From the NCBI GenBank assembly GCA_016929255.1, contig JAFGJH010000041.1:4313-68312 (forward strand): a stretch of DNA of 64,000 nucleotides, given 5' to 3'. This DNA comes from Candidatus Woesearchaeota archaeon. Its GTDB lineage: Archaea > Nanobdellota > Nanobdellia > Woesearchaeales > UBA11576. Both the position numbers and the translations under genes were made by a program. Below, piece after piece: positions 3,228 through 18,277 of the stretch. The notes beneath the pieces were generated by a model, which did not search any database, was not told the DNA's origin, and was given only the letters and a program-made list of their open reading frames with translations. Every line of letters begins with the position of its first letter. Within the stretch, counting starts at the first letter, position 1.

Positions 3228-4247
3228 ATGAAAGACTTTATCGCCAAGATAAAAAAACAGGCAAGGAAAGACCCCAAGCGCATCGTCTTCCCAGAATCGA
3301 CAGAGGAAAGGACACTCAAGGCGATACAGCAGATAATCAAAGAAAAGACAGCCATACCATTACTTCTAGGAAACGAAAAAGATATCCGCAAGAGGATGAC
3401 CCAGCTCAAGCTCAGCCTAAAGAAAGTCACCATAATAGACCATCTTTCAGACAAGAACAAGAATAAGTTCGAGAGGTTCTCACAGAAACTGTTCGAGCTT
3501 CGCAAGGAAAAAGGCATGACCGTCGAGCAGGCCAGAGAAAAGATGAAAGAAGAGATATACTACGGTATAATGATGGTCCATCTCGGAGAGGCAGACGGGC
3601 TCATATCAGGCGCGGTACACTCAACAGGCCACACGGTCCTCCCTGCCTTGCAGATAATAAAGTCGCGGGAGAAATTCCACAAGGTATCGGGAGTGTTTTT
3701 CCTGAATTTCAAAGACGAAGTGATGGTATTCGCAGATGCTGCAGTAACTATAGAGCCGGATGCCAAAGACCTCGCAGGCATAGCGATCGACTCAGCAAGG
3801 ACAGCGATAAGGTTCGGCATAGAACCGCGAGTCGCGCTGCTGTCATTCTCGACAAAGGGCAGCGCAGACCACCCGCTCGTCAAGAAGATGCAGGAAGCGA
3901 CAGCCATCGCAAAGGAAAAGGCCAAGAAGATGCTTCCAGAAGCAATCATAGACGGAGAGATGCAGCTAGATGCAGCAGTAGAGCCGTGGGTGGCAAAGAT
4001 AAAATGCCCTGATGCAACAATAAAAGGAGACGCGAACGTGCTCATATTCCCTGATCTGCAGGCAGCGAACATCGGCTACAAGCTTGCGACATTCTTCGGC
4101 CATGCAGAGGCCATCGGACCCATACTCCAGGGACTCAGGAAGCCAGTAAACGACCTCTCAAGAGGGTGCACTGTCCAGGACATAGTGGACATAACAGCGA
4201 TGACTGTCATAGAGGCCCACCACATAGAGAAAGGGGCAAAGGAATAA
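3228..4247 (+). CDS. pta: phosphate acetyltransferase (short Pta type)
   Basis: 339-aa ORF with RIVFPESTEERTLKA near the N-terminus and the Pta signature DGLISGAVHSTGHTVLPALQIIK. The length fits stand-alone PTA_PTB enzymes. Confidence 0.9.
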   Translation: MKDFIAKIKKQARKDPKRIVFPESTEERTLKAIQQIIKEKTAIPLLLGNEKDIRKRMTQLKLSLKKVTIIDHLSDKNKNKFERFSQKLFELRKEKGMTVEQAREKMKEEIYYGIMMVHLGEADGLISGAVHSTGHTVLPALQIIKSREKFHKVSGVFFLNFKDEVMVFADAAVTIEPDAKDLAGIAIDSARTAIRFGIEPRVALLSFSTKGSADHPLVKKMQEATAIAKEKAKKMLPEAIIDGEMQLDAAVEPWVAKIKCPDATIKGDANVLIFPDLQAANIGYKLATFFGHAEAIGPILQGLRKPVNDLSRGCTVQDIVDITAMTVIEAHHIEKGAKE

Positions 4248-4277
4248 TATCAAAGAAAAGAATTTTTTTTCAAACCT

Positions 4278-6017
4278 TCAATCTTCCATCGTTGACAAGT
4301 CTCCTATAGGCAGACCAAGTTCCTGCGCCTTGAGCACGCGCCTCATGATCTTGCCAGAGCGGGTCTTGGGAAGCGTGTCACGGAACTCAATCTCTTTCGG
4401 GTATGCGTGGCCTGCAAGCTTTGTCTTGATAAAATTCTTGATATCTGCCTTCAGATCATCAGACGGCTTATGCCCTTTCTTCAATGAGATGAACGCCTTG
4501 ATTATCTCGCCATACATATCGTCAGGCTTGCCGATGACACCCGCCTCTGCCACAGCAGGATGCTCTACCAAGGCAGACTCAACCTCGAAAGGGCCGACCC
4601 TGTGGCCTGCAGTCTTTATCACGTCATCAGCCCTGCCGACAAACCAGAAATAACCGTCCTCATCCATCCAGGCACGGTCACCGCTGATGTACCAGCCGCC
4701 CTTGAAATAGGAATCATACTTCTCCTTGTTGTTCCAGATCTCCACCATCATGCTCGGCCAGCCGGGTCTTATAGCAAGATTACCTTCTGTCTTGACGGGA
4801 ACTTCATTTCCTCTGTCATCAACGATGCCCGCGGTGATGCCCGGGAAAGGCTTGCCCATGCTGCCAACCTTCACATCCATGCAGGGATAGTTCGCGATAA
4901 GTATGCCTCCTGTCTCTGTCTGCCACCAGTTGTCATGGAACGCAAGACCGATATGCTCAAGTCCCCACCAGATGGCCTCGGGGTTCAGAGGCTCGCCGAC
5001 AGAGGCAAGATGGCGCAGGCTCGAAAGGTCATATTTCCTAGCGATGTCTGCACCCTCCTTCATCATCATGCGGATAGCAGTCGGAGCAGTGTACCACACA
5101 GTCACCTTGTAGTCATTGATGACCTTGTACCATTTCTCAGCGCTGAACCTCCTGGCATCGACAATGCTCGTGATTCCGTTCGAGAAAGGCCCGAGTATGC
5201 CATAAGCGATGCCGGTCACCCAGCCCGGGTCAGCAGTGCACCAGTAAATATCGTCAGGCTGCAGGTCAAGGATCCACTTGGTCGTAAGATGCTGATGGAT
5301 TATGTCATAATGCGTATGGACAACACCTTTAGGCCTGCCCGTGGTGCCTGAGGTGTAGAGCATGTAGGCGCGGTCCTCAGGTTCCATGTGAACAATTTCA
5401 AAATCCTTGGATGCTGACCACATCTCCTGGTTGTAGCTCAGCTCACCTTCTTCAGGCACGTAATCCCCTGTGACGATGACTTTCTGAAGCTCAGGAAGCC
5501 TGCCGCGTACCTTGTCGACACGCTCCTTCAGAGTAAGATCAGTCACGACAATCTTCGCCCCGCTGTCATTCAGCCGGTCGAACAGGGCATCAGGACCAAA
5601 AGCGGCAAACAGCGTAGAGGCGATGGCACCTGTCTTCAGGATGCCGAGGAAACTCACGTAAAGCTCCTCGATCCTCGGAAGGAAAATGAACACGCGATCG
5701 CCTTTCTTGACACCTTGTTTTGCCAGTACGTTGGCAAACCTGTTCGAAAGCATCGCGATATCCTCAAATGTGGGGTGCTTTGTGCTGCCCTCATCGATGA
5801 TGTGCAGAGCCACCCTTTTCTTCAGCGGAGTCTTGAGGTGGCGGTCGACAGCGACATAAGCAGCATTCATCTTTCCATCAACAAAGAACTCAATCTCATC
5901 CTTGTGAACATCATAAGAGAATTCCTTCCGCGCGAACTTGTAATCCTTAAGGTTAGGCATCTTCTTGAGCCTGCCAACCTCTTTCTTTATGACCTTAGGA
6001 TGCTGTTCCGCCATCAT
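4278..6017 (-). CDS. acs: AMP-forming acetyl-CoA synthetase (bacterial AcsA-like, ~570-aa class)
   Basis: 579-aa ORF with the AMP-binding motif YTSGTTGRPKGVVHTH, plus WWQTETGG and the C-terminal LPKTRSGKIMRRVLKA...GDLSTMED. From memory, the overall pattern closely resembles Bacillus-type AcsA. Confidence 0.88.
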   Translation of the reverse strand: MMAEQHPKVIKKEVGRLKKMPNLKDYKFARKEFSYDVHKDEIEFFVDGKMNAAYVAVDRHLKTPLKKRVALHIIDEGSTKHPTFEDIAMLSNRFANVLAKQGVKKGDRVFIFLPRIEELYVSFLGILKTGAIASTLFAAFGPDALFDRLNDSGAKIVVTDLTLKERVDKVRGRLPELQKVIVTGDYVPEEGELSYNQEMWSASKDFEIVHMEPEDRAYMLYTSGTTGRPKGVVHTHYDIIHQHLTTKWILDLQPDDIYWCTADPGWVTGIAYGILGPFSNGITSIVDARRFSAEKWYKVINDYKVTVWYTAPTAIRMMMKEGADIARKYDLSSLRHLASVGEPLNPEAIWWGLEHIGLAFHDNWWQTETGGILIANYPCMDVKVGSMGKPFPGITAGIVDDRGNEVPVKTEGNLAIRPGWPSMMVEIWNNKEKYDSYFKGGWYISGDRAWMDEDGYFWFVGRADDVIKTAGHRVGPFEVESALVEHPAVAEAGVIGKPDDMYGEIIKAFISLKKGHKPSDDLKADIKNFIKTKLAGHAYPKEIEFRDTLPKTRSGKIMRRVLKAQELGLPIGDLSTMED

Positions 6018-6099
6018 AACACCTCTTTAAGCCCCAAAAGGGGGAAATTATTTAAATAGTTTTCCTGTATCACCCATCCTATCAAAAAAGAGGCTGATA

Positions 6100-7191
6100 A
6101 TGGAGCACATACTGATACTGAACATCGGATCTTCTTCAATAAAGTATAACCTGTTCAAAGGAGAGCAGACAGCGCTCAAAGGATACCTCGAAAGGGTCAC
6201 TGATTACGGAAAAGGAATAAAGCAGATCATTGCCGAGATAAACAAGAAAGGGCTCAGCGTGGATGCAATAGGCCACAGGGTAGTGCACGGAGGGACACAC
6301 CAGGAATCTGCGCCGCTTGACACAAAAAAGGTCAAGGAGCTGGAGAACATATCAGAGCTCGCTCCGCTGCACAACATACCAGAGGTAAAAGGGATAAAAA
6401 TCTGCATGAAGCTGTTCAAAGTCCCCCAGGTGGCCGTGTTCGACACAGCTTTCCACCAGACAATGCCTGAGAAGGCATACACTTACGCAATACCTGCAGC
6501 ACTCGCCGCTAAGTACAAGATAAAACGTTATGGCTTCCATGGCACGAGCCACAACTATGTGGCGCATGAGGCCGCAAGGCTTACGGGCAAGCCGCTGGAA
6601 AAAGCGAAGATAATAACCTGTCACCTAGGAAACGGCTGCAGCATAACGGCAATAAATCACGGCCATTCAATAGACACCTCGATGGGATTCACGCCGCTTG
6701 AAGGGCTCGTTATGGGCACGCGAAGCGGCGACATAGACCCCGCAATCATACCGTTCATCCAGCAGAAAGAAAAGCTCAGCCACAAACAGGCAGAGGAAAT
6801 GCTCAACAAGAAGTCAGGGTTGCTCGGGCTGTGCGGAAAGAAAGACATGCGGGACATACATGCCGCGAGAGCGACAGATAGCAAGGCAAAACTCGCGCAC
6901 GACGTGTTCTGTTACAGGCTCACTAAGTACATAGGAGCATACATCGCAGCGATGAACGGAGTCGACGCGATAGTGTTCACAGGAGGCATCGGAGAGAACG
7001 CCTGGTGGGTCCGCGAGGACGTGCTCGAGAACTTCAGCCACATCGGGCTGAGGCTCAACAAGAAAGCGAACAGGAACAACGAGACAAAAATATCCTCATT
7101 TGCGTCAAGGGTGCGGCTCTTCGTGATACCTACGAACGAGGAGCTGATGATGGCGAGGGAAGTGAGGAAGACTCTCAGAGACAGGGTATGA
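6100..7191 (+). CDS. ackA: acetate kinase
   Basis: 363-aa ORF with ILILNIGSSSIKYNLF, HRVVHGG, YGFHGTSHNYV, CHLGNGCSI, GTRSGDIDP and FTGGIGENA, which are the acetate/propionate kinase signatures. Confidence 0.9.
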   Translation: MEHILILNIGSSSIKYNLFKGEQTALKGYLERVTDYGKGIKQIIAEINKKGLSVDAIGHRVVHGGTHQESAPLDTKKVKELENISELAPLHNIPEVKGIKICMKLFKVPQVAVFDTAFHQTMPEKAYTYAIPAALAAKYKIKRYGFHGTSHNYVAHEAARLTGKPLEKAKIITCHLGNGCSITAINHGHSIDTSMGFTPLEGLVMGTRSGDIDPAIIPFIQQKEKLSHKQAEEMLNKKSGLLGLCGKKDMRDIHAARATDSKAKLAHDVFCYRLTKYIGAYIAAMNGVDAIVFTGGIGENAWWVREDVLENFSHIGLRLNKKANRNNETKISSFASRVRLFVIPTNEELMMAREVRKTLRDRV

Positions 7192-7523: not shown

Positions 7524-8582
7524 TCAAAATACCATCTTGTACCTCAATACGGCAGCGATTCCGCCTAGTCCATCAAGCTTTCTGCCTCCATCGTGCTCAG
7601 AAGAGACTATGCAGATATCAGCGCCGCTGCGGTCAGCAGACCTCATGATATCATTTATCCTATTAAACTTTTCCTCCTGACGCATCTTCTGGATGATTCC
7701 ATCCGTGATCAGAAGAGTCCTGACTGCACCGGCATTCGCCGCATTCTCAGTCTCATCGACACCGTAAGCAGCAGCACCCCGCTTCGATATCTCTGAAAGC
7801 AGCTCTTCGACCAGGTTTATCTCAGATGCTATGCGATCCTGCTGGAGGACAGACTGCACCTCAGGCCTCTTCAGAACCTCATTGATAGCCCCCTTGTCGC
7901 AGGACGAGCAAGTGGCGAGCACAACCATCCTTTTCAGCTCCTGGTTCTTGAGGCTCTTCAGCAGATCCTCTTTCCAGAAAGCAGGGCTTGCAATAATCAC
8001 GTGCTTTATGCCGTGACGCTTCACATACTCCTGCAAAGAGCTGATTATCTCATCATAGAAATTTCCTGCAGACTGCCTGACATCCGCCTTTTTCGCCACC
8101 TCACCCTTGAGCTCAGCGACAACCTCAAAACCATATTTCTTCATCAAGGCTATGTATGCCTCCTCTCGGTCAAAGACGCAGATCATTGTGTCGGGCCGCC
8201 TTTCCTTCGCAGCCTCTTCCAGGCGCTGGCGCTGGTACTTCAGCCACTCTGGCTTGGTTATCGTGAGGGCCGTTCCCTCCTCGACATTGAAGGTGTGGTA
8301 GGAGCCCTTTGGGATGTCTTCCTTGCCCTCTGCGACCTTTCCGGATATGCGCAGTACATCAGAGTAACGGTGGAATTCCACCTTCTCAACATCAAGCTTC
8401 AGGAAAACGGGCTTCTTAATGATCTTCTGCGAGCGCTCATCCTCCCCGCCCATCTTGATCTTGCGGAAAGTCCTGCCCTCAACAGCATCACCTACATCAA
8501 TCATGTTGGACAGGTACCAGAGGTCGTCCAGGTTCTCAACGAGCAGTTTTGCCTCGTTCTTATGAAAGTGCAAAATTTTCAT
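7524..8582 (-). CDS. pelA: mRNA surveillance protein Pelota
   Basis: ORF 7524-8651. The conserved N-terminus MKILHFHKNEAKLLVENLDDLWYLSNMI starts at ATG 8582. It has the eRF1-like three-domain length (352 aa). Confidence 0.9.
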   Translation of the reverse strand: MKILHFHKNEAKLLVENLDDLWYLSNMIDVGDAVEGRTFRKIKMGGEDERSQKIIKKPVFLKLDVEKVEFHRYSDVLRISGKVAEGKEDIPKGSYHTFNVEEGTALTITKPEWLKYQRQRLEEAAKERRPDTMICVFDREEAYIALMKKYGFEVVAELKGEVAKKADVRQSAGNFYDEIISSLQEYVKRHGIKHVIIASPAFWKEDLLKSLKNQELKRMVVLATCSSCDKGAINEVLKRPEVQSVLQQDRIASEINLVEELLSEISKRGAAAYGVDETENAANAGAVRTLLITDGIIQKMRQEEKFNRINDIMRSADRSGADICIVSSEHDGGRKLDGLGGIAAVLRYKMVF

Positions 8583-8697
8583 CTTGTAAGCCCTAAAACC
8601 GGCTTTTTCGCCTGCGCAAATAGAAAAACATAAATATATAAAGATATTCATTTTGGGTTATAACCACCATAAGCGCTTATAAAAAGGTGAATACCTG

Positions 8698-9909
8698 ATG
8701 TATGGCCAAAACCCCCCCAAAAGAATAGTCATTTCTAGGAAGGCGCAGGATGCCGGTAACGCGGCAACCCTGATAGCTGTCATCGCATTGCTCATCATCT
8801 TCTACCTGCTATTCATCCCGCCAAGCTTTAGGGACCAGATACTGGAAGGCAACGAATCCACAACATCAACAACAGGCACAACAGGGACGGTCAACGAGAC
8901 GATCCTCAAGGCAAGTCCGGGAACGCTCTCACGCATATCATCAGAAGAGATAGAGCACAGCATACCATCCATAGTCCTCTATTCAAAGAAGGAGTCAAAA
9001 GTCATCAGCTCGGTAGCTTCATTATCAGTCAAATCATCAGTTTTCAGCTCAAAGACAGCGGCAATGCAGTTCACGATAGAAGACCTCGAGAACACAGACA
9101 ACCTGCTCCTGACCTTCATCGACAAAAAGTACAAGGGAGCGCTTATAGTGACGGTCAACGGCAACGAGGTATTCAACGGCGAGGTCACGCAGGAGAATCC
9201 GGCTCCGGTCACGCTGAACAAGCAGTTTCTGGTCAGAGGGAGCAACAAGATAGACTTCACAGCAGAGAGCGCCGGATGGAGATTCTGGAAAGTAAACAGG
9301 CATGACCTGCAGAACATCCAGGTGACAGGCGAGATAAAGGACATCTCGCGGCAGATGAGCAGGAACATATTCATAGTCTCAGCGACAGAGAAGTCCAATG
9401 TCAAGCGGGACATACTCAGGTTCACTCCGGACTGCATGACAGGCAAGACAGGCAAGCTAAATGTCATGATAAACCAGCACTCAGTATACTACTCAGTGCC
9501 CGACTGCGGCGGAAGGATAGCGATTGAGTTCACGCCAGACGTGCTCAGGGAAGGGGAGAACACAATAGTGTTCGACAGCGAGGAAGGAAGCTACCTAATA
9601 GACCTGATAAGGATAACGTCAGAGCTCAAGGAAGTGCTGCAGCCCGCGTACTACTTCGAGATCACGAAAGAGACAATGGAAGACGTGAGGGACGGAGACT
9701 ACGATGTCACGCTGAAGATAACATTCACAGAGGACAACGACCAGAAGGCAGGAGTCCTCAACATAAACGGAAGGGAGACAAGCATATTCCAGCGTGAGAG
9801 GACATACACCAAGAACATCAACGACTACATCATCGAAGGCAACAATGCAATCAAGATAGTGCCTGAGACCATGCTTGAGATAGTTTCCCTAGAAGTCATC
9901 AAAGAATAA
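8698..9909 (+). CDS. secreted/membrane-anchored protein with three internal beta-rich repeats, function unknown
   Basis: 403-aa ORF. Basic N-terminus then one hydrophobic helix (ATLIAVIALLIIFYLLF), a Thr-rich linker, and three similar segments (..VTVNGNEVFNG..GSNKIDF.. / ..VMINQHSVYY..GENTIVF.. / ..LNINGRETSI..GNNAIKI..). AAGGTGA Shine-Dalgarno-like element 7 nt upstream. Confidence 0.75.
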   Translation: MYGQNPPKRIVISRKAQDAGNAATLIAVIALLIIFYLLFIPPSFRDQILEGNESTTSTTGTTGTVNETILKASPGTLSRISSEEIEHSIPSIVLYSKKESKVISSVASLSVKSSVFSSKTAAMQFTIEDLENTDNLLLTFIDKKYKGALIVTVNGNEVFNGEVTQENPAPVTLNKQFLVRGSNKIDFTAESAGWRFWKVNRHDLQNIQVTGEIKDISRQMSRNIFIVSATEKSNVKRDILRFTPDCMTGKTGKLNVMINQHSVYYSVPDCGGRIAIEFTPDVLREGENTIVFDSEEGSYLIDLIRITSELKEVLQPAYYFEITKETMEDVRDGDYDVTLKITFTEDNDQKAGVLNINGRETSIFQRERTYTKNINDYIIEGNNAIKIVPETMLEIVSLEVIKE

Positions 9910-9961
9910 TCTTGAGAATTAATCATTTCATCGTTTTTATACGCGCGCATGAAAAAAAGAG

Positions 9962-12394
9962 GTGACAGTAGTTCTTATGCCTTTGACAAACACAGTACGA
10001 ATTCTGCAAGAGATGATTAAAGGCAAGAGAGCGATGTCGCCGATGCCTATGCCGAAACCAATGCCGAAACCTGCAGGTGGTGGTGGCGTTGGCGCAGGAA
10101 ATCCTGCAGGCGGCGGCGGAGGTGGCGCTGGCGGAGGTGCTGGTGGCAGCGGCAACCCTCTAGAGTCGCTCATGGGCGGCGGAGGCATGCCAGGGATGCC
10201 GGGCGGAAATCCTCTAGACCAGATTAAGGGCATGGCAAGCACAGGGTCAGGCGGGCTCATCAAACAGCATGAGGAAAAGATATCACAGCTGAAGCAGGAG
10301 ATAGCACAGCAGAAGGAGAATCTGAAGCAGGTCGATGCACAGATAGGCGGACCAGGGGGAGTCAAATCAAAGATTGACGCAGATAATACCTCGATAAGCG
10401 ATGCAAAAAAACAAGGTGCGGGAGTAGCACAGATACAGCAGATTGAGGCACATAAGGCACAGCTCGAGCAGCAGCTTCAGAAGCTGAATGAGCAGAAGGC
10501 AGCGATACAGGAAGTCATAAGGAAAAAAGAGGCAGAGATAGCTGTCGAGGAAGAAGCAATATCCAAGCTGAAAGGTGACCGCTGGACAGAACTTAAACTC
10601 AAAGCAGTCGGCTTCATCCCGGGCTACGGAACCGCGGCGGAGATAGCTGGCGAACAGGCCATGCAAATGAAGCATGGGGTCACAGAAGGAATGGCTGCGA
10701 AAAAAGAAGGAAAGATAGAAAGCGGCGCAGGCGAAGCTGAGAAAAAAGCAGCAGCTGCAGGCGAAGCCGCAAAAAGCGCAGGCGCATCAGCAGGACCAGC
10801 ACCAACCCCCACCCCCGCACCGTCAGGAGGAACCTCAGGCGGTGGCGGCGGAGGCGGACACATAGGAGGAGGCCTCCCTAATCTCGGAGCTCTCGGAGGA
10901 GGTGGCGGCGGAAGCGGCGGAATTGGCGGCGGAGAAAAGCCGCCAATAGTAACAGGACTGCTTGTAGGACTCAGCGTGCTCGGAGGAGGCATGGTGGTGA
11001 AATCATCAGGAAGCTTGGACATAGCGACGCTCCTTCCAGTGGTGATCCCAATAGCACTATTTATCACAGCACTGATATGCATCAGGCTCAGGTCAAAACA
11101 CTGGCTATTCCTTGTAGTTGGAATAATACTCCTAACAGGTTCGCTATACGGCGTAGCAACAAGGACAGCACCGCACGCTATTGCAGCATACCAGGCAGGA
11201 GCGATAGGTGAGTCAGGAGAACAGACACAAATCGCAGCGAAGAAAGGAGTTTCAGGAGTGATAGAGGATTTTTCAGTATCCTGGCAGAGACAGATGGCCA
11301 TCGCCAAAGGAGAGAATATAGACGGAGATGTAGACCAGCAAGTGAAAGAGGATGTAGGGCTCGAGATACTGCCGCCATACCTGCCGAACCCGACAAAGCT
11401 TAATCTCGATGAGGCAGGCACGCTCGAGATAGGGGCAAGGGTGAAAGGCTTCGATCCCAAGACACCAATAACCGCCACGACAGTGTGCCACATGCAGACA
11501 AGGGACGAGGCTGTCAGCTGGACAGGAAGCACAAGGACAGTCAAGCTCAACCCAGGCATCCAACAGAAGATCAGGCCGGTAACAGTCCAAGGCCACGCAT
11601 TCGACAGCGACATCATATGCTATCCAAGCATAACAAGATGCGGGCACTACGTGGTCACGATATCATCACAGGCAGACAACATAAGGACAGATGCGCAGAT
11701 GCAGAACTACATAATCGACAAGGAGATACTCAAGCAGAGGCTCAGGAGCTACGCAGAATCCAAAGACACGGAGTTGAGGTCAGAAAGCCAGGTCAACTCG
11801 GCGATAAACGAGATATACAAGGGGCAGGTCGGCAACTTCAAGTCAGTCTCGCAGAAAGGTGCGATAAAGGTGGTGATGGCAACGCAGCCTCTGGCACTGA
11901 TAGGCGTGGACCAGGAAACAGAACTCACGTTCAGGATGGGCATAGAGAACATGATGAACGGGTGGATAAGGACGCTCAACAGGGTGGAGGTAACCATACC
12001 CGGCTACTTCAGGCCATTGCCCGAGTACTGCACTAGCTGGCAGCTCGAAGGCAACAAGCTCATACTAAAACAGGAATACCTCAGGACAGTCAACCTTTAC
12101 GAAACAATAAGAGGAACACAGAAGATATTCCCCTCATGCCACCTCGTGCCGTCAGGAGATTACGCTCTGACAGAGCCCACAGAAGCCACGTTCCTTGCGC
12201 TCGTAGACTACAACTACATCGTCCAGTCAGAGTACAATGTAGAGATAAGGACAGCAGACGGCCAGATATGCAGAGAAGAAGCGAGCTCTGGCGGAAGCGG
12301 CGGAGGCGGTGCTGCCACCGGAGGATTACCGCATAACACAACAACAAATACCAGCAATAATCTAACAACATCTTTGAGCACGAACTCATCATAA
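9962..12394 (+). CDS. large membrane protein: Gly-rich/coiled-coil N-terminal part, TM segments, Cys-containing C-terminal ectodomain
   Basis: 810-aa ORF (GTG 9962; alternative ATGs at 9977 and 10013). It has poly-Gly tracts, a Q/K/E heptad region, hydrophobic helices (IVTGLLVGLSVLGGGMVV, LLPVVIPIALFITALICI, WLFLVVGIILLTGSLYGV) and a ~380-aa C-terminal domain ending in a G/N/T/S-rich tail. A TATA-like TTTTATAC lies ~25 nt upstream. Confidence 0.75.
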   Translation: MTVVLMPLTNTVRILQEMIKGKRAMSPMPMPKPMPKPAGGGGVGAGNPAGGGGGGAGGGAGGSGNPLESLMGGGGMPGMPGGNPLDQIKGMASTGSGGLIKQHEEKISQLKQEIAQQKENLKQVDAQIGGPGGVKSKIDADNTSISDAKKQGAGVAQIQQIEAHKAQLEQQLQKLNEQKAAIQEVIRKKEAEIAVEEEAISKLKGDRWTELKLKAVGFIPGYGTAAEIAGEQAMQMKHGVTEGMAAKKEGKIESGAGEAEKKAAAAGEAAKSAGASAGPAPTPTPAPSGGTSGGGGGGGHIGGGLPNLGALGGGGGGSGGIGGGEKPPIVTGLLVGLSVLGGGMVVKSSGSLDIATLLPVVIPIALFITALICIRLRSKHWLFLVVGIILLTGSLYGVATRTAPHAIAAYQAGAIGESGEQTQIAAKKGVSGVIEDFSVSWQRQMAIAKGENIDGDVDQQVKEDVGLEILPPYLPNPTKLNLDEAGTLEIGARVKGFDPKTPITATTVCHMQTRDEAVSWTGSTRTVKLNPGIQQKIRPVTVQGHAFDSDIICYPSITRCGHYVVTISSQADNIRTDAQMQNYIIDKEILKQRLRSYAESKDTELRSESQVNSAINEIYKGQVGNFKSVSQKGAIKVVMATQPLALIGVDQETELTFRMGIENMMNGWIRTLNRVEVTIPGYFRPLPEYCTSWQLEGNKLILKQEYLRTVNLYETIRGTQKIFPSCHLVPSGDYALTEPTEATFLALVDYNYIVQSEYNVEIRTADGQICREEASSGGSGGGGAATGGLPHNTTTNTSNNLTTSLSTNSS

Positions 12395-12411
12395 TCCGAA
12401 AAGGTGCAAAC

Positions 12412-13428
12412 ATGAACCGAAAACACACACCAACAACACAGTTTCTATCACGAATGCTGATTCTCTTAATCCTCCTAATGCTGTCCGGCTGCAGCGGTGC
12501 AGGCGGGTTCTTCAAGGGCAACACCAAAACAATAGAGACATACAACTTCAGGCAGGGAACTGACGCCCTCTCGATGCAGTTCATCGAGGGCATGCCCCCT
12601 AGCCAGGTATTCATCGGGACAGACTTCAGCACAGGGCTCAAAATCAAGAATATGGGAGCCTATGACATAGACGGCAACGCAGAGCTTTCCATAAGCGTCC
12701 CTGACGCTTCCGCATTCAGCTTCAAGCAGGGAAACAAGGAACAGTTCATCATGAAAGGCAAATCATTGTACATCAAAGAAGGAGAAGAGAACGTCATAAT
12801 ATTCCCGATGAAAGCGCTGTGCTTCCCGGGATATGCCGAACAGATAGTCAGGAACTACACAAGGAAGATAAAGGCCACAGCATGCTACTACTACGAGACC
12901 ACCGCCAATGCTGACCTCTGCATAGACACCAGGAAGTTCCTCAGGGCAGAGAAGGAGAAACCAGAATGCCAGATGCGAGACATGACTCTCTCAGGAGGAC
13001 AGGGAGGGCCTGTAGGAGTCTCGAGGATATCACCGACAGTGATACCCCAATCGACAGAAGAGGTCACAGTGCAGCTGGCAATATCAATAGACAAGCTAAA
13101 AGGAGCAGACCACAACATATTCCACCCGGACTCAGGATGCACTGACCCACAGCAGCTGAACAGGGTGCAGGTAAGCGTGGAGATGGGCGGAGAGCCGCTC
13201 CAGTGCAGGCCGTCAGAGATACAGCTCAAGGAAAGGCAGTCAGTAAGCATGATATGCGAGAAGAAAGTCAACCCTTCCCTCGGAGCGTTCCTGTCACCGG
13301 TCACAGTCAACATGAGATACTATGTCCAGCAGACACAGCTGAAGGACATAACAGTAGAGCCGCCTCCGCTGGAGTACGGCAATACAGTAAACTGCGCAGC
13401 CCTGAGCGGCGCTCAACCTGCCTCTTAG
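12412..13428 (+). CDS. predicted lipoprotein, paralog 1 of a three-member family
   Basis: 338-aa ORF with a signal peptide and lipobox (LLILLMLSGC). Shares GT[ED]xLxMxF, hxhxhxNxG beta-sandwich motifs, ACYYYETTANADLCID, GGPVGV and six aligned Cys with ORFs 13655 and 14638. Confidence 0.8.
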   Translation: MNRKHTPTTQFLSRMLILLILLMLSGCSGAGGFFKGNTKTIETYNFRQGTDALSMQFIEGMPPSQVFIGTDFSTGLKIKNMGAYDIDGNAELSISVPDASAFSFKQGNKEQFIMKGKSLYIKEGEENVIIFPMKALCFPGYAEQIVRNYTRKIKATACYYYETTANADLCIDTRKFLRAEKEKPECQMRDMTLSGGQGGPVGVSRISPTVIPQSTEEVTVQLAISIDKLKGADHNIFHPDSGCTDPQQLNRVQVSVEMGGEPLQCRPSEIQLKERQSVSMICEKKVNPSLGAFLSPVTVNMRYYVQQTQLKDITVEPPPLEYGNTVNCAALSGAQPAS

Positions 13429-13580
13429 AATCACCTGGAAGCAGCGGCATCAAGCAAACAAGGCTGAACAGCACCAGCTTAAAGACAGAACAGCAGAAGC
13501 AGGGTATACGTTAAATAATCAGGTATAAAGCCCGTATCACCGAAAAATATAAATACTCAAAAACCGCGATTTAGCACACA

Positions 13581-13600
13581 CAAAGCCCCTCTGGGCTTTG
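13581..13600 (+). other. perfect 8-bp stem / 4-nt loop hairpin between lipoprotein paralogs 1 and 2
   Basis: CAAAGCCC-CTCT-GGGCTTTG. It lies ~27 nt downstream of the TATA-like ATATAAAT (13547-13554) and 55 nt upstream of ATG 13655. Confidence 0.5.
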
Positions 13601-13654
13601 GTGTCCTAAAATTATTGGTTTTCAATAATTTTATGACAAAAGAGGCCTAAAAAG

Positions 13655-14596
13655 ATGGTAAACAAAAAAACAAGCATTACTTTCGGGTTGATTTTCGCAC
13701 TGCTGCTGATAACAGGCTGCAGCAGCTTCGGAGGAAGTAGGGACGGTCCGCCTGTGTCAGCAGAGTTCGTCGCCTCAGGCACAGAAGGCATAGTCATGAG
13801 CTTCATAGCAGACCAGCCTCCGCCCAAAGTATACACGCAGTCACCGCTGACATTCCTTGTAGAGATAAGGAACAGAGGGACATACACAGTCCCCAGCGCA
13901 GCATTCTACCTCACAGGGTTCGACCCAAACATCATAATTGGACTGCCGCCATCCTACATAATCACGCAGCCTCTGGAAGGCAAGAACCAGTTCAACCCTG
14001 ACGGAGGATACACGACAGCAGAGTTCTCAACATCAACAGTCACGCTGCCGACAAGCATGCCAAACTACAGGCCCACATTCATGCTCACGGCATGCTACCC
14101 ATACCACACAATCGCCACGCCTCTCATCTGCGTAGACCCCAACCCGCTCGACACGACATCAGACAAGGCCTGCAGGGTGCAGAAGGTCTATTCTACAGGA
14201 AGCCAGGGAGCCCCCGTATCTGTGCAGAGCATAGAGACAGAGGCAAGGCCGACAGGCATGTTCTTCAGGATACACATCGCAAACCTGGCAGGAGGCACAG
14301 AACAGGCAAGCGGAACAGTATTCGACCAGACAGCCATGCAGACCTGCCCGGGAGGGCTGCAGTACAAGGACCTTAACCAGATTGACTACATGGTATCAAT
14401 CGCAGGACAGCCGCTCGACTGCGAGCCCAAAGCAAAGATAAGGCTCGTCAACAACGTGGCGACAATATTCTGCAAGTACCTTAACCTGCCGCAGATACCC
14501 GCATACCAGACCCCCATAGAGGTGGAGCTCAGCTACGGATACAAAAGCTCGATATCCAAGATTGTAGAGATAGAGAACCTTAACTTCGCAAGATAA
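13655..14596 (+). CDS. predicted lipoprotein, paralog 2
   Basis: 313-aa ORF with lipobox LLLITGC. Family motifs: SGTEGIVMSF, LVEIRNRGTYTV, ACYPYHTIATPLICVD, GAPVSV. Confidence 0.8.
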   Translation: MVNKKTSITFGLIFALLLITGCSSFGGSRDGPPVSAEFVASGTEGIVMSFIADQPPPKVYTQSPLTFLVEIRNRGTYTVPSAAFYLTGFDPNIIIGLPPSYIITQPLEGKNQFNPDGGYTTAEFSTSTVTLPTSMPNYRPTFMLTACYPYHTIATPLICVDPNPLDTTSDKACRVQKVYSTGSQGAPVSVQSIETEARPTGMFFRIHIANLAGGTEQASGTVFDQTAMQTCPGGLQYKDLNQIDYMVSIAGQPLDCEPKAKIRLVNNVATIFCKYLNLPQIPAYQTPIEVELSYGYKSSISKIVEIENLNFAR

Positions 14597-14637
14597 ATCT
14601 TCATGAAACAACAGAGGTCAGACTAGGAGGTCAAAAA

Positions 14638-15606
14638 ATGAGGAAAGCAATCCTGATAACATTCGTCGCGTTCCTGCTGTTATTCGCAGCAGGATGCAAC
14701 AAGGAAGAGCAGCAGGGCCCAGTGGGCTCAAAGTTCGTAGGAGGCACAGAAGGCCTGTCCATAAGCTTTGCGCCGGGATCCATACCTGACAAGATACTCG
14801 ACAAAGACCAGCCGTTCGGCATAAGCGTGGTACTCACGAACAAAGGAGACCACACCATAGAGAACGGAGCAGATGCGACAGTCAAGATAACAGGGATAGA
14901 CCCGGCAGACTTCGGCGTTGGCGCAGGAGACCTGGTCCAGGACAGCCCAGGAACAATCAGGGGGGCACAGAAAGACGTCCAGGGAGCGGTCATACAGGGA
15001 GAGACAGTAAGCCTTGACTTCCCTGCAAGCGGAGCAAGCTTTGTCCACCAGAAAGAGATAGCAGGAGCAGTGACATACAATGTCAGGGCAGACGTGTGCT
15101 ACAAATACGGCACGGTAGCCAACACAAAGCTCTGCGTCCTTGAAGACATACTCGGCACCCACGGAGCATCAGGCAAGCTCTGCCAGATAAACGAGGACAA
15201 GGTCGTCGACAACTCAGGAGCCCCTGTCCAGATAGTATCATTCAGGGAATCGGTATCCTCGGCGAACAAAGTGGCATTTGTCTTCAAGATAAAGCATGTA
15301 GGCACAGGGACCGTCCATGAGATGGACAGCGAGTGCGCAAAGGAGTTCCAGCAGAAGGACAAAGTGCATGTAATGGTTGACACTGGCATATCAGACGGCC
15401 TGACGTGCTCAGGACTCCAGGACGGAGCAGCTTCAGGATCAGTTTATGAGGGCAATGCGCAGCTCCTCAACGGAGAGAGGGAGATAAGGTGCACACAGAA
15501 CATAAACAGCCCAACAGACCTCGAGAAACTGACCATAATAGAGCTCACATACGACTATGACCAGAACATAGAGAAAAGGCTCGAAGTCCAGCACGTGGGA
15601 GGATAA
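14638..15606 (+). CDS. predicted lipoprotein, paralog 3
   Basis: 322-aa ORF with lipobox LLFAAGC and a strong TAGGAGGT Shine-Dalgarno. Family motifs: GGTEGLSISF, VVLTNKGDHTI, VCYKYGTVANTKLCVLED, GAPVQI. Confidence 0.8.
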   Translation: MRKAILITFVAFLLLFAAGCNKEEQQGPVGSKFVGGTEGLSISFAPGSIPDKILDKDQPFGISVVLTNKGDHTIENGADATVKITGIDPADFGVGAGDLVQDSPGTIRGAQKDVQGAVIQGETVSLDFPASGASFVHQKEIAGAVTYNVRADVCYKYGTVANTKLCVLEDILGTHGASGKLCQINEDKVVDNSGAPVQIVSFRESVSSANKVAFVFKIKHVGTGTVHEMDSECAKEFQQKDKVHVMVDTGISDGLTCSGLQDGAASGSVYEGNAQLLNGEREIRCTQNINSPTDLEKLTIIELTYDYDQNIEKRLEVQHVGG

Positions 15607-15663
15607 GACTTAATATTTTATCATTAATTTTTTTCATATTTCTTTTTCTGCCCAACTACACAT

Positions 15664-15955
15664 TTAAAGCGGTGGCTGCAGCCACGCTGCTACCCTGCTG
15701 TCGGTTGCCATGTGAATTCTGTTTTGCTGGTTGCTGCGCAAACCCTGAAGAACAGACAAAAGCGCAACCATTCTGATTCTTTGGTCTGAGGACACGCAAA
15801 GAGCGGTGGCTGCAGCCACGCTGCTATCGGTCATGTTGGTTGCTATCTTTCTATCCTTTAGCCTGTTGCTGCGCAAACCCTGAAGAACAGACAAAAGTGC
15901 AACCATTCTGATTCTTTGGTCTGAGGACACGCAAAGAGCGGTGGCTGCAGCCACG
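15664..15955. repeat. tandem 134-135 bp repeat array (2 units) bounded by three copies of a palindromic hairpin motif
   Basis: GCGGTGGCTGCAGCCACG occurs at 15669, 15803 and 15938. The segment 15731-15820 matches 15866-15955 at 89 of 90 positions. The array lies between convergent gene ends. Confidence 0.9.
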
Positions 15956-16001
15956 AATTAATATTCATGGCCACTGCCGCTTTTCTGAAAATAATAAACA
16001 A

Positions 16002-17243
16002 TCACTTCCCGACGATGTTGAGGCTGGAAAAAGCATTCTCCACATCAGCCTTCGAGTAACCAGAACTCAAGAGGGAATGCCTTATCTTGTCAATGTCATC
16101 GCCATGGTCCATCGCCAGCTCAATCATAGGCAGTATCTCATCTATCTTAGACGGAAGGCTGCTGCCTCCATCATCAGTGCCGGAATCCATTCCAGTTTCT
16201 CCAGAAGGGGCATCATCATCAGACACACCCATCCTGCCTGCGTAACCTGAACTCTCAGGTTCATCAAAAGACCTGAGATCGTCAGGGCTTATGCTGACCG
16301 TCTCAGACGGCTCGAACCGGGTCATCATCAGCTCCTTCATGCGCTCCCCGAACTCGCTCATCAAGGCGTTCTCCTTGCGCGCCTTCTCCTCAATCACCTT
16401 CTGCTGCTTATCAAGCTTCACCTTCATCGAAGCAAGAGCAGCATTGAAGAGCGAGACCTTCTTCGCATGGTTCTTCATTATTATGAGCCTCTTCTCCTCC
16501 TCTTCCTTCCTCAACTGCTCAAGAGCGTCGGCATACTCAGCCTCCCTGGAGCCTATTACGCGCCCCTTTTCCGCAAGAGCGGCGTCGTTAGACTTAAGGC
16601 GCTCCTTCATCCTCATCATCTCATAAAGAAGCTTCTGGTTCTGTTCATCAGTGGAGAAGACGCGTTTCTCGACAGCGCCGACCTTGTTGTTGAGGGCAAA
16701 GACCTGCTTCCTGTAAGCGTCGATCTGCTGCTCAAGGTCACTGTTCCTGCTGTCCATCCCCTTCAACAGCGATGTCTTCTCGGCTAGCTTGTCCTTCAGC
16801 ACCCGGACCATACCATCCTTCTCAGCCACTTGCTTCCTGAGCTCTGTGTTGAGCCTGTCCAAATCCTGCAGCTGCCTCCTGCTGTCTAGGATGTCCTTTG
16901 AAAGCGACTCTATCCTGGCAGACTGGTCATCAATCTTCTGCTTCATCGAGTTGACGACATCCTCGCGCCTGGAAAGGTCAAGCTCAACAGGCTTAATGTC
17001 ATCAATCATCTCAGAAATCAGCCGGCGCTTATCCTCAAGCTCTCCCTTGAGCCTCTTGAGCTCAGCGCGCACAGCAGGATCAGAACCTGAACCTCCCATC
17101 TCCTGCCTCAGGCTCTCGAACTCCTCCGCGAACCTGGAGATGACCTCCTGATTCTTCCTCAGACGGTCGGCCAGCTCCTCATTGGAACGCATGATCTCCT
17201 GGCTCTTCTTCCCAATATCCTCAAGGATGCTATTTTCCACCAT
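16002..17243 (-). CDS. cytoplasmic coiled-coil protein, function unknown
   Basis: 413-aa ORF, almost entirely heptad-like E/K/R/L-rich, with an acidic Ser/Asp linker and a small C-terminal helical domain (IDEILPMIELAMDHGDDIDKIRHSLLSSGYSKADVENAF). Confidence 0.7.
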   Translation of the reverse strand: MVENSILEDIGKKSQEIMRSNEELADRLRKNQEVISRFAEEFESLRQEMGGSGSDPAVRAELKRLKGELEDKRRLISEMIDDIKPVELDLSRREDVVNSMKQKIDDQSARIESLSKDILDSRRQLQDLDRLNTELRKQVAEKDGMVRVLKDKLAEKTSLLKGMDSRNSDLEQQIDAYRKQVFALNNKVGAVEKRVFSTDEQNQKLLYEMMRMKERLKSNDAALAEKGRVIGSREAEYADALEQLRKEEEEKRLIIMKNHAKKVSLFNAALASMKVKLDKQQKVIEEKARKENALMSEFGERMKELMMTRFEPSETVSISPDDLRSFDEPESSGYAGRMGVSDDDAPSGETGMDSGTDDGGSSLPSKIDEILPMIELAMDHGDDIDKIRHSLLSSGYSKADVENAFSSLNIVGK

Positions 17244-17314
17244 CTTTTTTTTTCAGCTCCCGCCATGGCAGGCAACCAACGACATGCGAATGACCATCGA
17301 AAGTGCACCAATAC

Positions 17315-18277
17315 TCATTTCTCAGAGCCGACCAACGCAACGTGCGCAAGGAAAGCCTCAAGCTGGACGAACTCGTCGCTGCCCTCAGTCATCCTGAACT
17401 CGGCCTCGCCGCATTTCTCGACCAGAGACATCTTCTTCCTGCCGTCGAGCTCAAGGTTGTATATCTCCTTCTGGACCTGCTTTATGACATCAAGGCCCGA
17501 AAGCCCGTAATTGAGCATGACATCGAGCAGCCTTTCCCGCGAATCGATGAACCCGCCCTTCAACGCAATCTCAAGGACATCCTTGACTTCCTTCGGCCTC
17601 GCGACCGACGCCAGAGAGTAGACTATATCATCTGTTATATTCTTGCTGATCGCGGCAGCGCTCTGGAGGATGTTCTCGACCCTCCTACAGTCCCCCTCTG
17701 ATATGTTGAACAGCGCCTCCTCAGCCTTGTCGTCCAGCCTCAGCCCCTCAATCTTGGCAATCTTCTTGACCAGCCTGAACACATCAACTTTCGGAAGCGG
17801 CTTGAAGCGGAATATCGCGCATCTCGACTGGATAGGATCTATTATCTTGCTGCTGTAATTGGCCGCCAGGATGAACCTTGTGGTCTGGGTGTAGTTCTCC
17901 ATGGTCCTTCTCAGGGCCTGCTGCGCCTCTCTCGTGAGAGCATCGCACTCGTCAAGATAGATTATCTTGAAAGGCACGTCCCCTATAGCCCGCGTCCTGG
18001 CAAAATCCTTGACCTTGTTCCTTATCACATCTATACCTCGCTCATCAGAAGCGTTAAGCTCAAGGAAGTTGCTGTGCCAAGACTCGCCGAAAAGCTGCCT
18101 TGCGACGACCAGCGCAAGAGAGGTCTTCCCGACTCCCGCGGGTCCTGAAAACAGAAGATGAGGCATGTTCTTCTCCTTCACAAAAGCCTCCACTCTCTTC
18201 ACAACAGCTTCCTGCCCAAGGACCTCGCTGAAGTCCTTAGGCCTGAATTTCTCTGTCCAGATGGCGTGCTCTGTCAT
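17315..18277 (-). CDS. rfcS: replication factor C small subunit
   Basis: WTEKFRPKDF, Walker A GPAGVGKTS, DECD, the SRC motif QSRCAIFRF. The conserved N-terminus starts at ATG 18277, inside ORF 17315-18346. Confidence 0.92.
   Translation of the reverse strand: MTEHAIWTEKFRPKDFSEVLGQEAVVKRVEAFVKEKNMPHLLFSGPAGVGKTSLALVVARQLFGESWHSNFLELNASDERGIDVIRNKVKDFARTRAIGDVPFKIIYLDECDALTREAQQALRRTMENYTQTTRFILAANYSSKIIDPIQSRCAIFRFKPLPKVDVFRLVKKIAKIEGLRLDDKAEEALFNISEGDCRRVENILQSAAAISKNITDDIVYSLASVARPKEVKDVLEIALKGGFIDSRERLLDVMLNYGLSGLDVIKQVQKEIYNLELDGRKKMSLVEKCGEAEFRMTEGSDEFVQLEAFLAHVALVGSEK

What the first reader, a model, noticed from the sequence alone, without database searches (positions are those of the whole stretch)
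12412..15606. Three tandem paralogous lipoproteins with two CARDB-like beta-sandwich motifs and six conserved cysteines
All three proteins start with a signal peptide ending in a lipobox Cys (LSGC, ITGC, AAGC). They align over their whole length at these blocks:
- GT(E/D)xLxMxF
- hxhxhxNxGxxxh, present twice
- (A/V)CYxYxTxAxxxxC(I/V)
- a third Cys ~15-20 aa later
- G(A/G)PVxV
- three further aligned Cys

Sequence identity is low, which indicates an old duplication maintained in tandem. The six Cys fit three disulfides in an extracellular protein.
Basis: partly seen in the sequence, partly recalled or inferred. Interest (0 to 1): 0.6.

Follow-up and report, generated by a model that had tools for sequence, protein, structure and literature searches.

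The report
Three lipid-anchored paralogues, conserved envelope module
Three neighbouring genes of a tiny symbiont-type archaeon (Woesearchaeota) encode ancient sister surface proteins that are very probably fastened to the membrane by a bacterial-style lipid anchor, and they belong to an undescribed five-gene cell-surface module kept by almost every member of this lineage.

Summary
ORFs 12412-13428, 13655-14596 and 14638-15606 are true paralogues (BLASTP E 2e-22, 4e-11, 8e-16; 23-26% identity). Each has a lipobox signal peptide.

An AlphaFold2 model of the middle one (pLDDT 83, pTM 0.76) shows two Ig-like beta-sandwich domains. The six extra cysteines behave as three disulfides: across 64 relatives they are lost only in pairs.

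The family has no Pfam or NCBIfam model, and CARDB/DUF11 membership is not met. It is nonetheless large: 3386 clusters at 50% identity.

Nearly every genome of the same order carries three copies or more. They form three orthogroups that keep their gene order, so the triplication predates the order.

The three genes sit in a conserved module: pelota | 403-aa anchored triple jelly-roll protein | 810-aa polytopic protein | Lp1-Lp2-Lp3 | RFC. The ectodomain of the 810-aa protein is probably a fourth paralogue. Some of its orthologues end in SLT or M23 peptidoglycan hydrolase domains.

The genome also encodes bacterial-type Lgt and LspA, both above the NCBIfam equivalog cut-offs, and the lineage shares them.

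The function is inferred, not shown. My best guess is a non-enzymatic, hetero-oligomeric, membrane-proximal surface scaffold, possibly involved in glycan or host-wall contact.

The parts
12412..13428 (+). LpA (Lp1 orthogroup), 338 aa. Lipobox LSGC with Cys27 (codon 12490-12492), followed by two beta-sandwich domains.
   Evidence: ORF; BLASTP to LpB and LpC; falls in the p1 clade, support 98/97.
13655..14596 (+). LpB (Lp2 orthogroup), 313 aa. Lipobox ITGC with Cys22 (codon 13718-13720). Disordered tether at aa 23-34; domain 1 about aa 40-160 (13772-14134); Cys-stapled linker; domain 2 about aa 185-308 (14207-14578).
   Evidence: AF2 model, pLDDT 83.4 and pTM 0.76; Foldseek; 57 close homologues, all from Woesearchaeota/Nanoarchaeota.
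14638..15606 (+). LpC (Lp3 orthogroup), 322 aa. Lipobox AAGC with Cys20 (codon 14695-14697).
   Evidence: ORF; BLASTP; falls in the p3 clade, support 100/100.
8698..9909 (+). g403: N-terminal [KR][GA]Q motif plus one TM helix plus the conserved stretch LFLPPxER, then three galactose-binding-like (CBM-type) jelly-roll domains with one conserved Cys pair. First gene of the module.
   Evidence: Alignment. AF2 model pLDDT 82.7. Foldseek hits to GH35 jelly-rolls and BcsB. Weak CBM-like/CBM_35 Pfam hits in single orthologues. Found in 277/301 genomes, with almost the same phyletic pattern as Lp.
9962..12394 (+). g810: Gly-rich and coiled-coil N-terminal region (inferred cytoplasmic), about 3 TM helices, then an ectodomain of about 345 aa that is probably a fourth, TM-anchored paralogue of the Lp family. 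It ends in a Gly/Asn/Thr-rich tail.
   Evidence: hhalign of the Lp profile against the ectodomain profile: probability 90%, E 1.4e-6 over domain 2; collinear over 264 columns at low mact. Positional orthologues carry SLT (2/16) or Peptidase_M23 (1/16) at the C-terminus.
13429..13654 (+). 226-bp AT-rich spacer between LpA and LpB. Candidate internal archaeal promoter (TATA-like AATAATTTTAT about 25-35 nt before the ATG). Inferred only.
   Evidence: Sequence read. The sigma-70 scan is not applicable to archaea.
15607..15660 (+). T-rich stretch after LpC. Likely end of the transcription unit (inferred).
   Evidence: Sequence read.

Best explanation
LpA, LpB and LpC are three anciently diverged paralogues of one undescribed protein family of the Woesearchaeota/Pacearchaeota-type DPANN archaea.

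Maturation (inferred from the signal peptides and the machinery). Each is exported by Sec. A bacterial-type Lgt lipidates it on the lipobox cysteine and a bacterial-type LspA cleaves it. Both enzymes are encoded in this genome. The mature protein then hangs from the outer face of the membrane on a flexible tether of about 10-15 residues.

Structure. Each mature protein is two Ig-like beta-sandwich domains locked by three disulfides: one between the domains (C147-C231, LpB numbering), one in the linker hairpin (C159-C173) and one inside domain 2 (C256-C273). No conserved catalytic-type residues are present, so the proteins are structural or binding modules, not enzymes.

Context. The three genes are the tail of a five-gene, lineage-wide module. 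It starts with a signal-anchored protein made of three carbohydrate-binding-type jelly-rolls (g403). Next comes a polytopic membrane protein (g810). Its ectodomain is probably a fourth paralogue of the same family. In some lineages g810 ends in a peptidoglycan hydrolase domain.

Most likely mechanism (inferred, not shown). The three lipoproteins, the g810 ectodomain and g403 assemble into one hetero-oligomeric, membrane-proximal surface scaffold. The basis is that each paralogue has been kept as a single copy, in fixed order, since before the order radiated. The scaffold would present glycan-binding, and in some lineages wall-cleaving, modules to the outside, for example towards a partner cell's wall.
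For: Shown:
- Paralogy.
- Lipobox Cys kept in 64/64 relatives, and cysteines lost only in pairs.
- Two-domain AF2 model with pTM 0.76, consistent with a fixed inter-domain arrangement.
- Only Ig/FnIII/MG-like fold matches.
- Lgt: PF01790 at E 1.4e-59; TIGR00544 161 bits against a cut-off of 119.
- LspA: PF01252 at E 1.4e-31; TIGR00077 103 bits against a cut-off of 74. Both are in the window's own genome, and LspA lies beside aIF-1A on an archaeal contig.
- Lgt is found in 264/301 and LspA in 74/81 genomes of the phylum sample, including closed genomes.
- About 34 lipobox ORFs in this genome by a crude scan.

Evidence for the module:
- Exactly 3 copies in the own genome.
- 3 copies (sometimes 4-5) in nearly all genomes of the order and 1-3 in most other orders of the class.
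- Three orthogroups that match gene position.
- Synteny pelota|g403|g810-like|Lp1|Lp2|Lp3|RFC in 15 of 22 order loci, and g403-g810like-Lp clusters in other orders.
- Co-occurrence of g403 and Lp: 267 genomes with both, 21 with neither, 13 discordant. The families that lack both also lack Lgt.
- Families with 4 Lp copies often have 2-4 g403 copies.
- g810 ectodomain against the Lp profile: probability 89-90%, E about 2e-6.
- SLT and M23 domains at the C-termini of g810 orthologues.
- g403 jelly-rolls resemble GH35 CBM-type domains and BcsB.
Against:
- Physical interaction between the five proteins was not tested. No multimer prediction was available.
- Lipidation itself is inferred.
- The g810-Lp homology rests on a profile-profile match of moderate strength over one domain only.
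- The peptidoglycan hydrolase domains occur in only 3 of 16 sampled g810 orthologues and not in this window's g810, so host-wall contact may be a lineage-specific add-on.
- Conserved neighbourhood with pelota and RFC shows that long-kept synteny here does not by itself imply shared function.
- In one family (f12) Lp2-Lp3 lie apart from g403.
Confidence: 0.45

Rival explanations
1. The proteins are the building blocks, or the membrane anchor layer, of the cell's own S-layer-type envelope. In this reading a lattice or pedestal of Ig-like domains is built from three or four paralogous subunits, with no role in partner contact.
For: Archaeal S-layer proteins are typically arrays of Ig-like beta-sandwich domains, and some are lipid-anchored (general knowledge; Haloferax csg). 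The family is near-universal, with fixed copy number. It has no catalytic motifs.
Against: The window's Lp proteins have only 0-1 N-glycosylation sequons. At about 30 kDa they are small compared with typical S-layer proteins. No S-layer Pfam domain is matched. Abundance is unknown.
Confidence: 0.2
2. The three lipoproteins act independently, each as a separate ligand-binding or adhesin protein with its own specificity. They are kept in tandem only by history and do not form one complex with g403 and g810.
For: Tandem Ig-like lipoproteins are common stand-alone adhesins and binding proteins in bacteria (general knowledge). The paralogues are only 23-26% identical. In family f12 the cluster is split. 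The 226-bp spacer may hold a separate promoter for LpB-LpC.
Against: Independent adhesins usually vary in copy number and turn over. Here each orthogroup is kept once per genome, in fixed order, across an entire order. The phyletic pattern is almost identical to that of g403.
Confidence: 0.2
3. The module is part of an envelope-biogenesis or transport machine. One example would be handling of an exported glycan, by analogy with BcsB, with the Lp proteins as accessory periplasm-like subunits.
For: The g403 fold matches include BcsB, the anchored glycan-guiding subunit of cellulose synthase (a weak BcsB Pfam hit in one orthologue). g810 is polytopic.
Against: No glycosyltransferase, ABC transporter or other transporter gene lies in or next to the module in any of the roughly 34 loci examined. 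The TM region of g810 is poorly conserved and shrinks to 1-3 helices in other orders. The BcsB similarity is confined to generic jelly-roll domains (TM-scores about 0.2).
Confidence: 0.1

Closest known systems
Bacterial Lgt/LspA-dependent lipoproteins (lipobox [LVI][ASTVI][GAS]C)
   Same: The signal peptide has the same layout, with a lipobox Cys at position 20-27. Genuine Lgt (TIGR00544) and LspA (TIGR00077) homologues are encoded in the same genome and across the lineage.
   Different: The host is an archaeon. The donor lipid is unknown, and the mature protein family has no bacterial counterpart detected. The archaeal lipoprotein literature states that no archaeal Lgt or Lsp homologues have been identified (PMC12462473).
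CARDB (PF07705) / DUF11 (PF01345) type Ig-like beta-sandwich domains
   Same: Ig-like sandwich fold, and a strand motif hxhxhxNxG present once per domain. A Tupanvirus DUF11 protein is among the Foldseek hits.
   Different: No HMM match even at E <= 1. The family has its own signature: GTxG...F, CYxYxT...C, GAPV, a terminal YxY strand and three disulfides.
Vibrio cholerae RbmA and other tandem FnIII/Ig surface scaffold proteins (also Enterococcus WxLIP, integrin alpha calf/thigh domains)
   Same: Two consecutive beta-sandwich domains in an extracellular, non-enzymatic protein. Foldseek E about 1e-4, probability up to 0.97.
   Different: TM-scores are only about 0.2. There is no sequence similarity, the anchoring differs, and nothing indicates the same ligand or assembly.
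Module 98 of Castelle et al. 2021 (PMC8204110): 51 protein families specific to Pacearchaeota and Woesearchaeota, mostly of unknown function
   Same: Same phyletic range and the same 'hypothetical' status. That paper also notes extracellular lytic transglycosylase proteins in these lineages.
   Different: The paper does not describe these families, their paralogy, the lipobox, the fold or the five-gene module. Whether these families are in Module 98 was not checked; the supplementary table was not opened.
BcsB (periplasmic subunit of bacterial cellulose synthase) and GH35 C-terminal jelly-rolls. This comparison concerns the neighbouring g403 protein only.
   Same: Membrane-anchored protein built of galactose-binding-like jelly-roll domains.
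   Different: The anchor is N-terminal rather than C-terminal. There is no partner synthase and the TM-scores are low. This is a fold-level resemblance only.

Membership tests
Lgt/LspA-type (bacterial-type) lipoproteins | Sec-type signal peptide ending in a lipobox with an invariant Cys at +1 | tested here: met
   LSGC, ITGC and AAGC in the window. The Cys column is kept in 64/64 relatives and lipobox-type signals are seen across loci.
Lgt/LspA-type (bacterial-type) lipoproteins | Prolipoprotein diacylglyceryl transferase (Lgt) present in the organism | tested here: met
   PF01790 at E 1.4e-59, full length. TIGR00544 161.1 bits against a cut-off of 118.9. Motifs HGG, GRIANFINGELPGR and HPQQLY are read in the ORF. 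Present in 264/301 genomes of the phylum sample.
Lgt/LspA-type (bacterial-type) lipoproteins | Signal peptidase II (LspA) present in the organism | tested here: met
   PF01252 at E 1.4e-31. TIGR00077 102.7 bits against a cut-off of 73.95. Motifs GNLMDR and FNLSD are present, and the neighbouring gene is aIF-1A. Present in 74/81 genomes.
Lgt/LspA-type (bacterial-type) lipoproteins | Thioether-linked lipid on the N-terminal Cys of the mature protein | not testable with these tools
   Needs mass spectrometry, Triton X-114 partitioning, or globomycin or Cys-to-Ser experiments.
AliA/AliB-dependent archaeal lipoproteins (PMC12462473) | AliA (arCOG02177) or AliB (arCOG02178) encoded in the genome | not tested
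   No model or reference sequence for these arCOGs was available in the libraries. The paper reports AliA in DPANN 'with some gaps'.
CARDB / DUF11 / APHP domain families | Match to the family HMM at or near the gathering threshold | tested here: not met
   No Pfam family at E <= 1 other than LPAM_1 for the three proteins. None among the 33 family members scanned.
CARDB / DUF11 / APHP domain families | Ig-like seven-strand beta-sandwich fold | tested here: met
   AF2 model with two sandwich domains. Foldseek matches only tandem Ig/FnIII/MG-like proteins. This feature is generic and not sufficient for membership.
Archaeal S-layer (glyco)proteins | Known S-layer domain, large size, many N-glycosylation sequons, very high abundance | tested here: inconclusive
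   No S-layer Pfam domain. The proteins are 313-338 aa with 0-1 sequons.

The most novel reading that the evidence does not exclude
The five-gene module (g403, g810, Lp1-3) is the conserved partner-contact apparatus of Woesearchaeota/Pacearchaeota. In this reading it is a lipid- and TM-anchored hetero-oligomeric pedestal that binds the glycan wall of a bacterial partner through the jelly-roll protein. In some lineages it also cuts that wall with SLT or M23 domains fused to the TM-anchored paralogue. Anchoring would depend on a bacterial-type Lgt/LspA pathway shared by the whole lineage. That would make it the first defined machinery for an archaeon-bacterium episymbiosis.
Probability: 0.15. 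Interest if true: 0.85.

Novelty: new variant of a known kind. Interest (0 to 1): 0.6.

Why it matters
Woesearchaeota and Pacearchaeota are among the most widespread uncultured archaea, and most of their lineage-specific proteins have no known role.

This work defines one large unannotated family: 3386 clusters at 50% identity. It describes the family's fold, disulfide pattern and three fixed orthogroups. It also defines the five-gene surface module the family belongs to, which is kept in about 90% of sampled genomes of the phylum.

This gives experimenters a concrete, conserved target for asking how these cells build their surface and touch their partners.

It also supplies clear candidate substrates for the bacterial-type Lgt/LspA pathway found in these archaea. 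That pathway contradicts the published statement that archaea have no Lgt or Lsp homologues.

Tried and rejected
- Pfam and NCBIfam scans of the three proteins, of 33 relatives and of the two upstream proteins gave no family. The only results were coiled-coil noise for g810 and weak CBM hits for single g403 orthologues.
- Profile searches of PDB sequences gave only insignificant hits: DUF4352 8q30 at E 0.55 and CBM35 of GH26 at E 0.28.
- Foldseek against PDB and viral structures gave only generic Ig-like or jelly-roll matches with TM about 0.2, so no specific functional relative emerged.
- hhalign of g403 against the Lp and g810 profiles showed no relationship.
- The search for related loci with the family alignment failed because no conserved stretch was usable. 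Loci were fetched through the genome search instead.
- The sigma-70 promoter and terminator scan is uninformative for an archaeon and gave counts at the shuffle level.
- Rfam found nothing in 8000-17500.
- A mobile-element or viral origin is rejected. The module is vertically inherited with conserved housekeeping neighbours across an order, and partly across the class.
- A solute-binding-protein role is rejected: no transporter genes are adjacent in any locus.
- Antisense ORFs such as 10624-11616 (-) are mirror images of Gly-rich coding sequence, not genes.
Full report
**Observation**

- LpA, 12412-13428, 338 aa
- LpB, 13655-14596, 313 aa
- LpC, 14638-15606, 322 aa

Each begins with a basic n-region and a hydrophobic stretch, followed by a lipobox: LSGC (Cys27), ITGC (Cys22) or AAGC (Cys20). 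Pairwise BLASTP gives E 2e-22 (A/B), 4e-11 (A/C) and 8e-16 (B/C), at 23-26% identity over almost the whole length. tblastn finds no other copy in the window, and a profile search finds exactly three in the 1.21-Mb, 93%-complete genome.

Two small corrections apply:
- The second hxhxhxNxG motif is real at family level but degenerate in this window's LpA and LpC.
- LpA has two extra cysteines.

**Organism and family**

The neighbouring genes are archaeal housekeeping genes: pelota, the RFC small subunit and an archaeal-type TyrRS. All 57 close homologues of LpB come from 'Candidatus Woesearchaeota' or 'Nanoarchaeota' assemblies, and all are named hypothetical.

No Pfam or NCBIfam model matches the three proteins or 33 relatives, even at E <= 1. 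The family is nonetheless large. A profile search of 1.84 billion cluster representatives finds 3386 clusters at E <= 1e-3 and 1698 at E <= 1e-30.

**Fold and disulfides**

An AlphaFold2 model of LpB, built on 33 sequences, has mean pLDDT 83.4 and pTM 0.76. It shows:
- the signal helix
- a disordered tether (residues 23-34)
- a beta-sandwich at about 40-160
- a lower-confidence linker
- a second beta-sandwich at about 188-307

Foldseek against the PDB and against viral models returns only tandem Ig/FnIII/MG-like proteins. These include integrin alpha-V calf/thigh domains, RbmA, WxLIP, transglutaminase C-terminal barrels and a DUF11 protein. E-values reach down to 4e-5, but TM-scores are about 0.2. 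'Two beta-sandwich domains' is therefore supported; 'CARDB' membership is not.

I aligned 64 family members taken from 23 genomes. The lipobox Cys, C159 and C173 (LpB numbering) are invariant. C147 and C231 are absent together in 13 sequences. C256 and C273 are absent together in one. This pairwise co-loss assigns three disulfides:
- C147-C231, between the two domains
- C159-C173, in the linker hairpin
- C256-C273, within domain 2

Other invariant or near-invariant residues are structural in character: G42, N73, G75, Y148, Y150, T152, G185, P187, Y294 and Y296. Nothing suggests a catalytic site.

**Age of the triplication**

In a sample of 301 genomes of the phylum, 270 have the family. Almost every genome of the same order has three copies (some four or five). 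Other orders of the class have one to three, and a few families have none.

A maximum-likelihood tree of the 64 proteins splits them into three groups that match gene position:

| Group | Support |
|---|---|
| First gene | 98/97 |
| Third gene | 100/100 |
| Second gene | 92/74 |

The triplication therefore predates the radiation of the order, and both the order of the genes and the single-copy state of each paralogue have been maintained since.

**The module**

The three genes are the tail of a conserved cluster. In 15 of 22 loci from the order the arrangement is: pelota (opposite strand) | protein of about 400 aa | protein of 500-850 aa | Lp1 | Lp2 | Lp3 | RFC. In twelve loci from other orders of the class, 11 hold g403 next to one or two Lp genes and 7 also hold a g810-like gene of 414-507 aa between them; the twelfth (L037) shows only g810-like plus Lp. 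Three of the twelve lie beside pelota.

*g403 (window 8698-9909).* It has a conserved N-terminus ([KR][GA]Q, one TM helix, LFLPPxER). An AF2 model (pLDDT 82.7) shows three jelly-roll domains. These match the galactose-binding-like domains of GH35 beta-galactosidases and BcsB. Single orthologues give weak CBM-like or CBM_35 Pfam hits. g403 occurs in 277/301 genomes, and its pattern is nearly that of Lp:

| Pattern | Genomes |
|---|---|
| g403 and Lp both present | 267 |
| Neither present | 21 |
| Discordant | 13 |

The absences are concentrated in a few families, so they represent few independent events. Families with four Lp copies often have two to four g403 copies.

*g810 (window 9962-12394).* It has a Gly-rich, coiled-coil N-terminal region, about three TM helices and an ectodomain of about 345 aa. 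A profile of 16-24 ectodomains matches the Lp profile with probability 89-90% and E about 2e-6 over domain 2. The alignment is collinear over 264 columns when the stringency is relaxed. The ectodomain is therefore probably a fourth paralogue, anchored by TM helices rather than by lipid. Among 16 positional orthologues, two end in an SLT lytic-transglycosylase domain (E 1e-11) and one in Peptidase_M23 (E 2.5e-16). This shows the C-terminus faces outward. It also connects the module to the 'extracellular murein transglycosylase proteins' noted in these lineages (PMC8204110, PMC9723730).

**Lipoprotein machinery**

The window's own genome encodes both enzymes of the bacterial pathway:
- A full-length bacterial-type Lgt: PF01790 at E 1.4e-59, and TIGR00544 at 161 bits against a cut-off of 119. 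The motifs HGG, GRIANFINGELPGR and HPQQLY are present.
- An LspA: PF01252 at E 1.4e-31, and TIGR00077 at 103 bits against a cut-off of 74. The motifs GNLMDR and FNLSD are present.

The lspA gene lies next to an aIF-1A gene, so its contig is archaeal. The lgt gene overlaps by 4 nt a gene for another lipobox protein.

Lgt is present in 264/301 genomes of the phylum sample and LspA in 74/81, including closed single-contig genomes. In the control set both models match only the ten bacteria and none of the four archaea. The families that lack Lp and g403 also lack Lgt and LspA.

A crude scan finds about 34 lipobox ORFs in this genome.

[quoted passage not shown] Earlier notes of this scan had already flagged Lgt in Woesearchaeota. 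I found it independently, before reading those notes. I add that LspA is present and lineage-wide as well.

**Interpretation**

Shown:
- real paralogues
- conserved lipobox
- a matching maturation machinery
- a tandem Ig-like fold
- paired cysteines
- an ancient, fixed triplication
- a conserved five-gene neighbourhood
- a shared phyletic pattern

Inferred:
- that the proteins are lipidated
- that the five products assemble into one hetero-oligomeric, membrane-proximal scaffold
- that this scaffold presents glycan-binding or wall-cleaving modules outward

The complex is inferred from three things: the single-copy retention of each paralogue in fixed order, the co-inheritance with g403, and the probable fourth paralogue carried on a TM protein. 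It has not been tested.

Rivals:
- an S-layer-type envelope layer or its anchor, weakened by small size and 0-1 glycosylation sequons
- three independent binding proteins
- a glycan-handling machine, for which no synthase or transporter gene was found

**Limits**
- No multimer prediction was available.
- AliA/AliB could not be searched.

**Verdict**

What is there is an undescribed, lineage-defining family of lipid-anchored tandem beta-sandwich proteins, embedded in an undescribed five-gene surface module of Woesearchaeota-type archaea. It is a new variant of a known kind (lipid-anchored Ig-like surface proteins), of moderate to high interest.

Noticed in passing
Own genome G000: C55:257-973 (L039, ORF 233-1021) and C20:4267-4668 (L040, ORF 1432-1950): Bacterial-type Lgt and LspA, both above the NCBIfam equivalog cut-offs, in an archaeal genome. 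Lgt is in 264/301 and LspA in 74/81 sampled genomes of the phylum, including closed genomes. The published literature (PMC12462473) says archaea have no Lgt or Lsp homologues. Some earlier notes of this scan treated Lsp as missing; here it is present.
   Followed up: yes
L039:1018-1500 (own genome, contig C55): The gene that overlaps the lgt stop codon by 4 nt encodes a 160-aa lipobox protein (LAAGC). It has weak cupredoxin-type hits (NosZ C-terminal, nitrosocyanin, CoxB) and is a likely dedicated neighbouring substrate.
   Followed up: partly
L012, L024 (SLT) and L002/L003 (Peptidase_M23): C-terminal ends of the g810 positional orthologues: Peptidoglycan hydrolase domains are fused to the outward-facing end of the TM-anchored paralogue in some Woesearchaeales. 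Part of the 'large extracellular murein transglycosylases' reported for these lineages may be this module's second gene.
   Followed up: partly
window 8698-8830 (g403 N-terminus) and own genome C2:9772-10101, C58:12615-12935: g403 orthologues share a [KR][GA]Q motif just before the TM helix. This is reminiscent of archaeal class III (prepilin-type) signal peptides, although it does not fit the FlaFind pattern exactly. The genome has two Peptidase_A24 (prepilin peptidase) hits.
   Followed up: partly
window 15664-15955: Two tandem units of about 134 bp lie just downstream of LpC, punctuated by the palindrome GCGGTGGCTGCAGCCACGC, which occurs three times. No Rfam family matches. Another first-stage note also flagged this.
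   Followed up: no
window 16002-17243 (-): A 413-aa coiled-coil protein (SMC-like hits only) lies between LpC and RFC. A counterpart sits in the same position in L016 (454 aa; BLASTP E 2e-10, 22% identity). L002/L003 carry an unannotated 514-aa gene there whose relationship to this protein was not tested. L001 has none.
   Followed up: no
window 10624-11616 (-): A 330-aa Pro-rich antisense ORF mirrors the Gly-rich tracts of g810. It is a codon-complement artefact, not a gene.
   Followed up: no
window 3228-7191: An acetate kinase (TIGR00016, E 3e-132) lies upstream of pelota. Another first-stage note describes a bacterial-style pta-acs-ackA module here.
   Followed up: no
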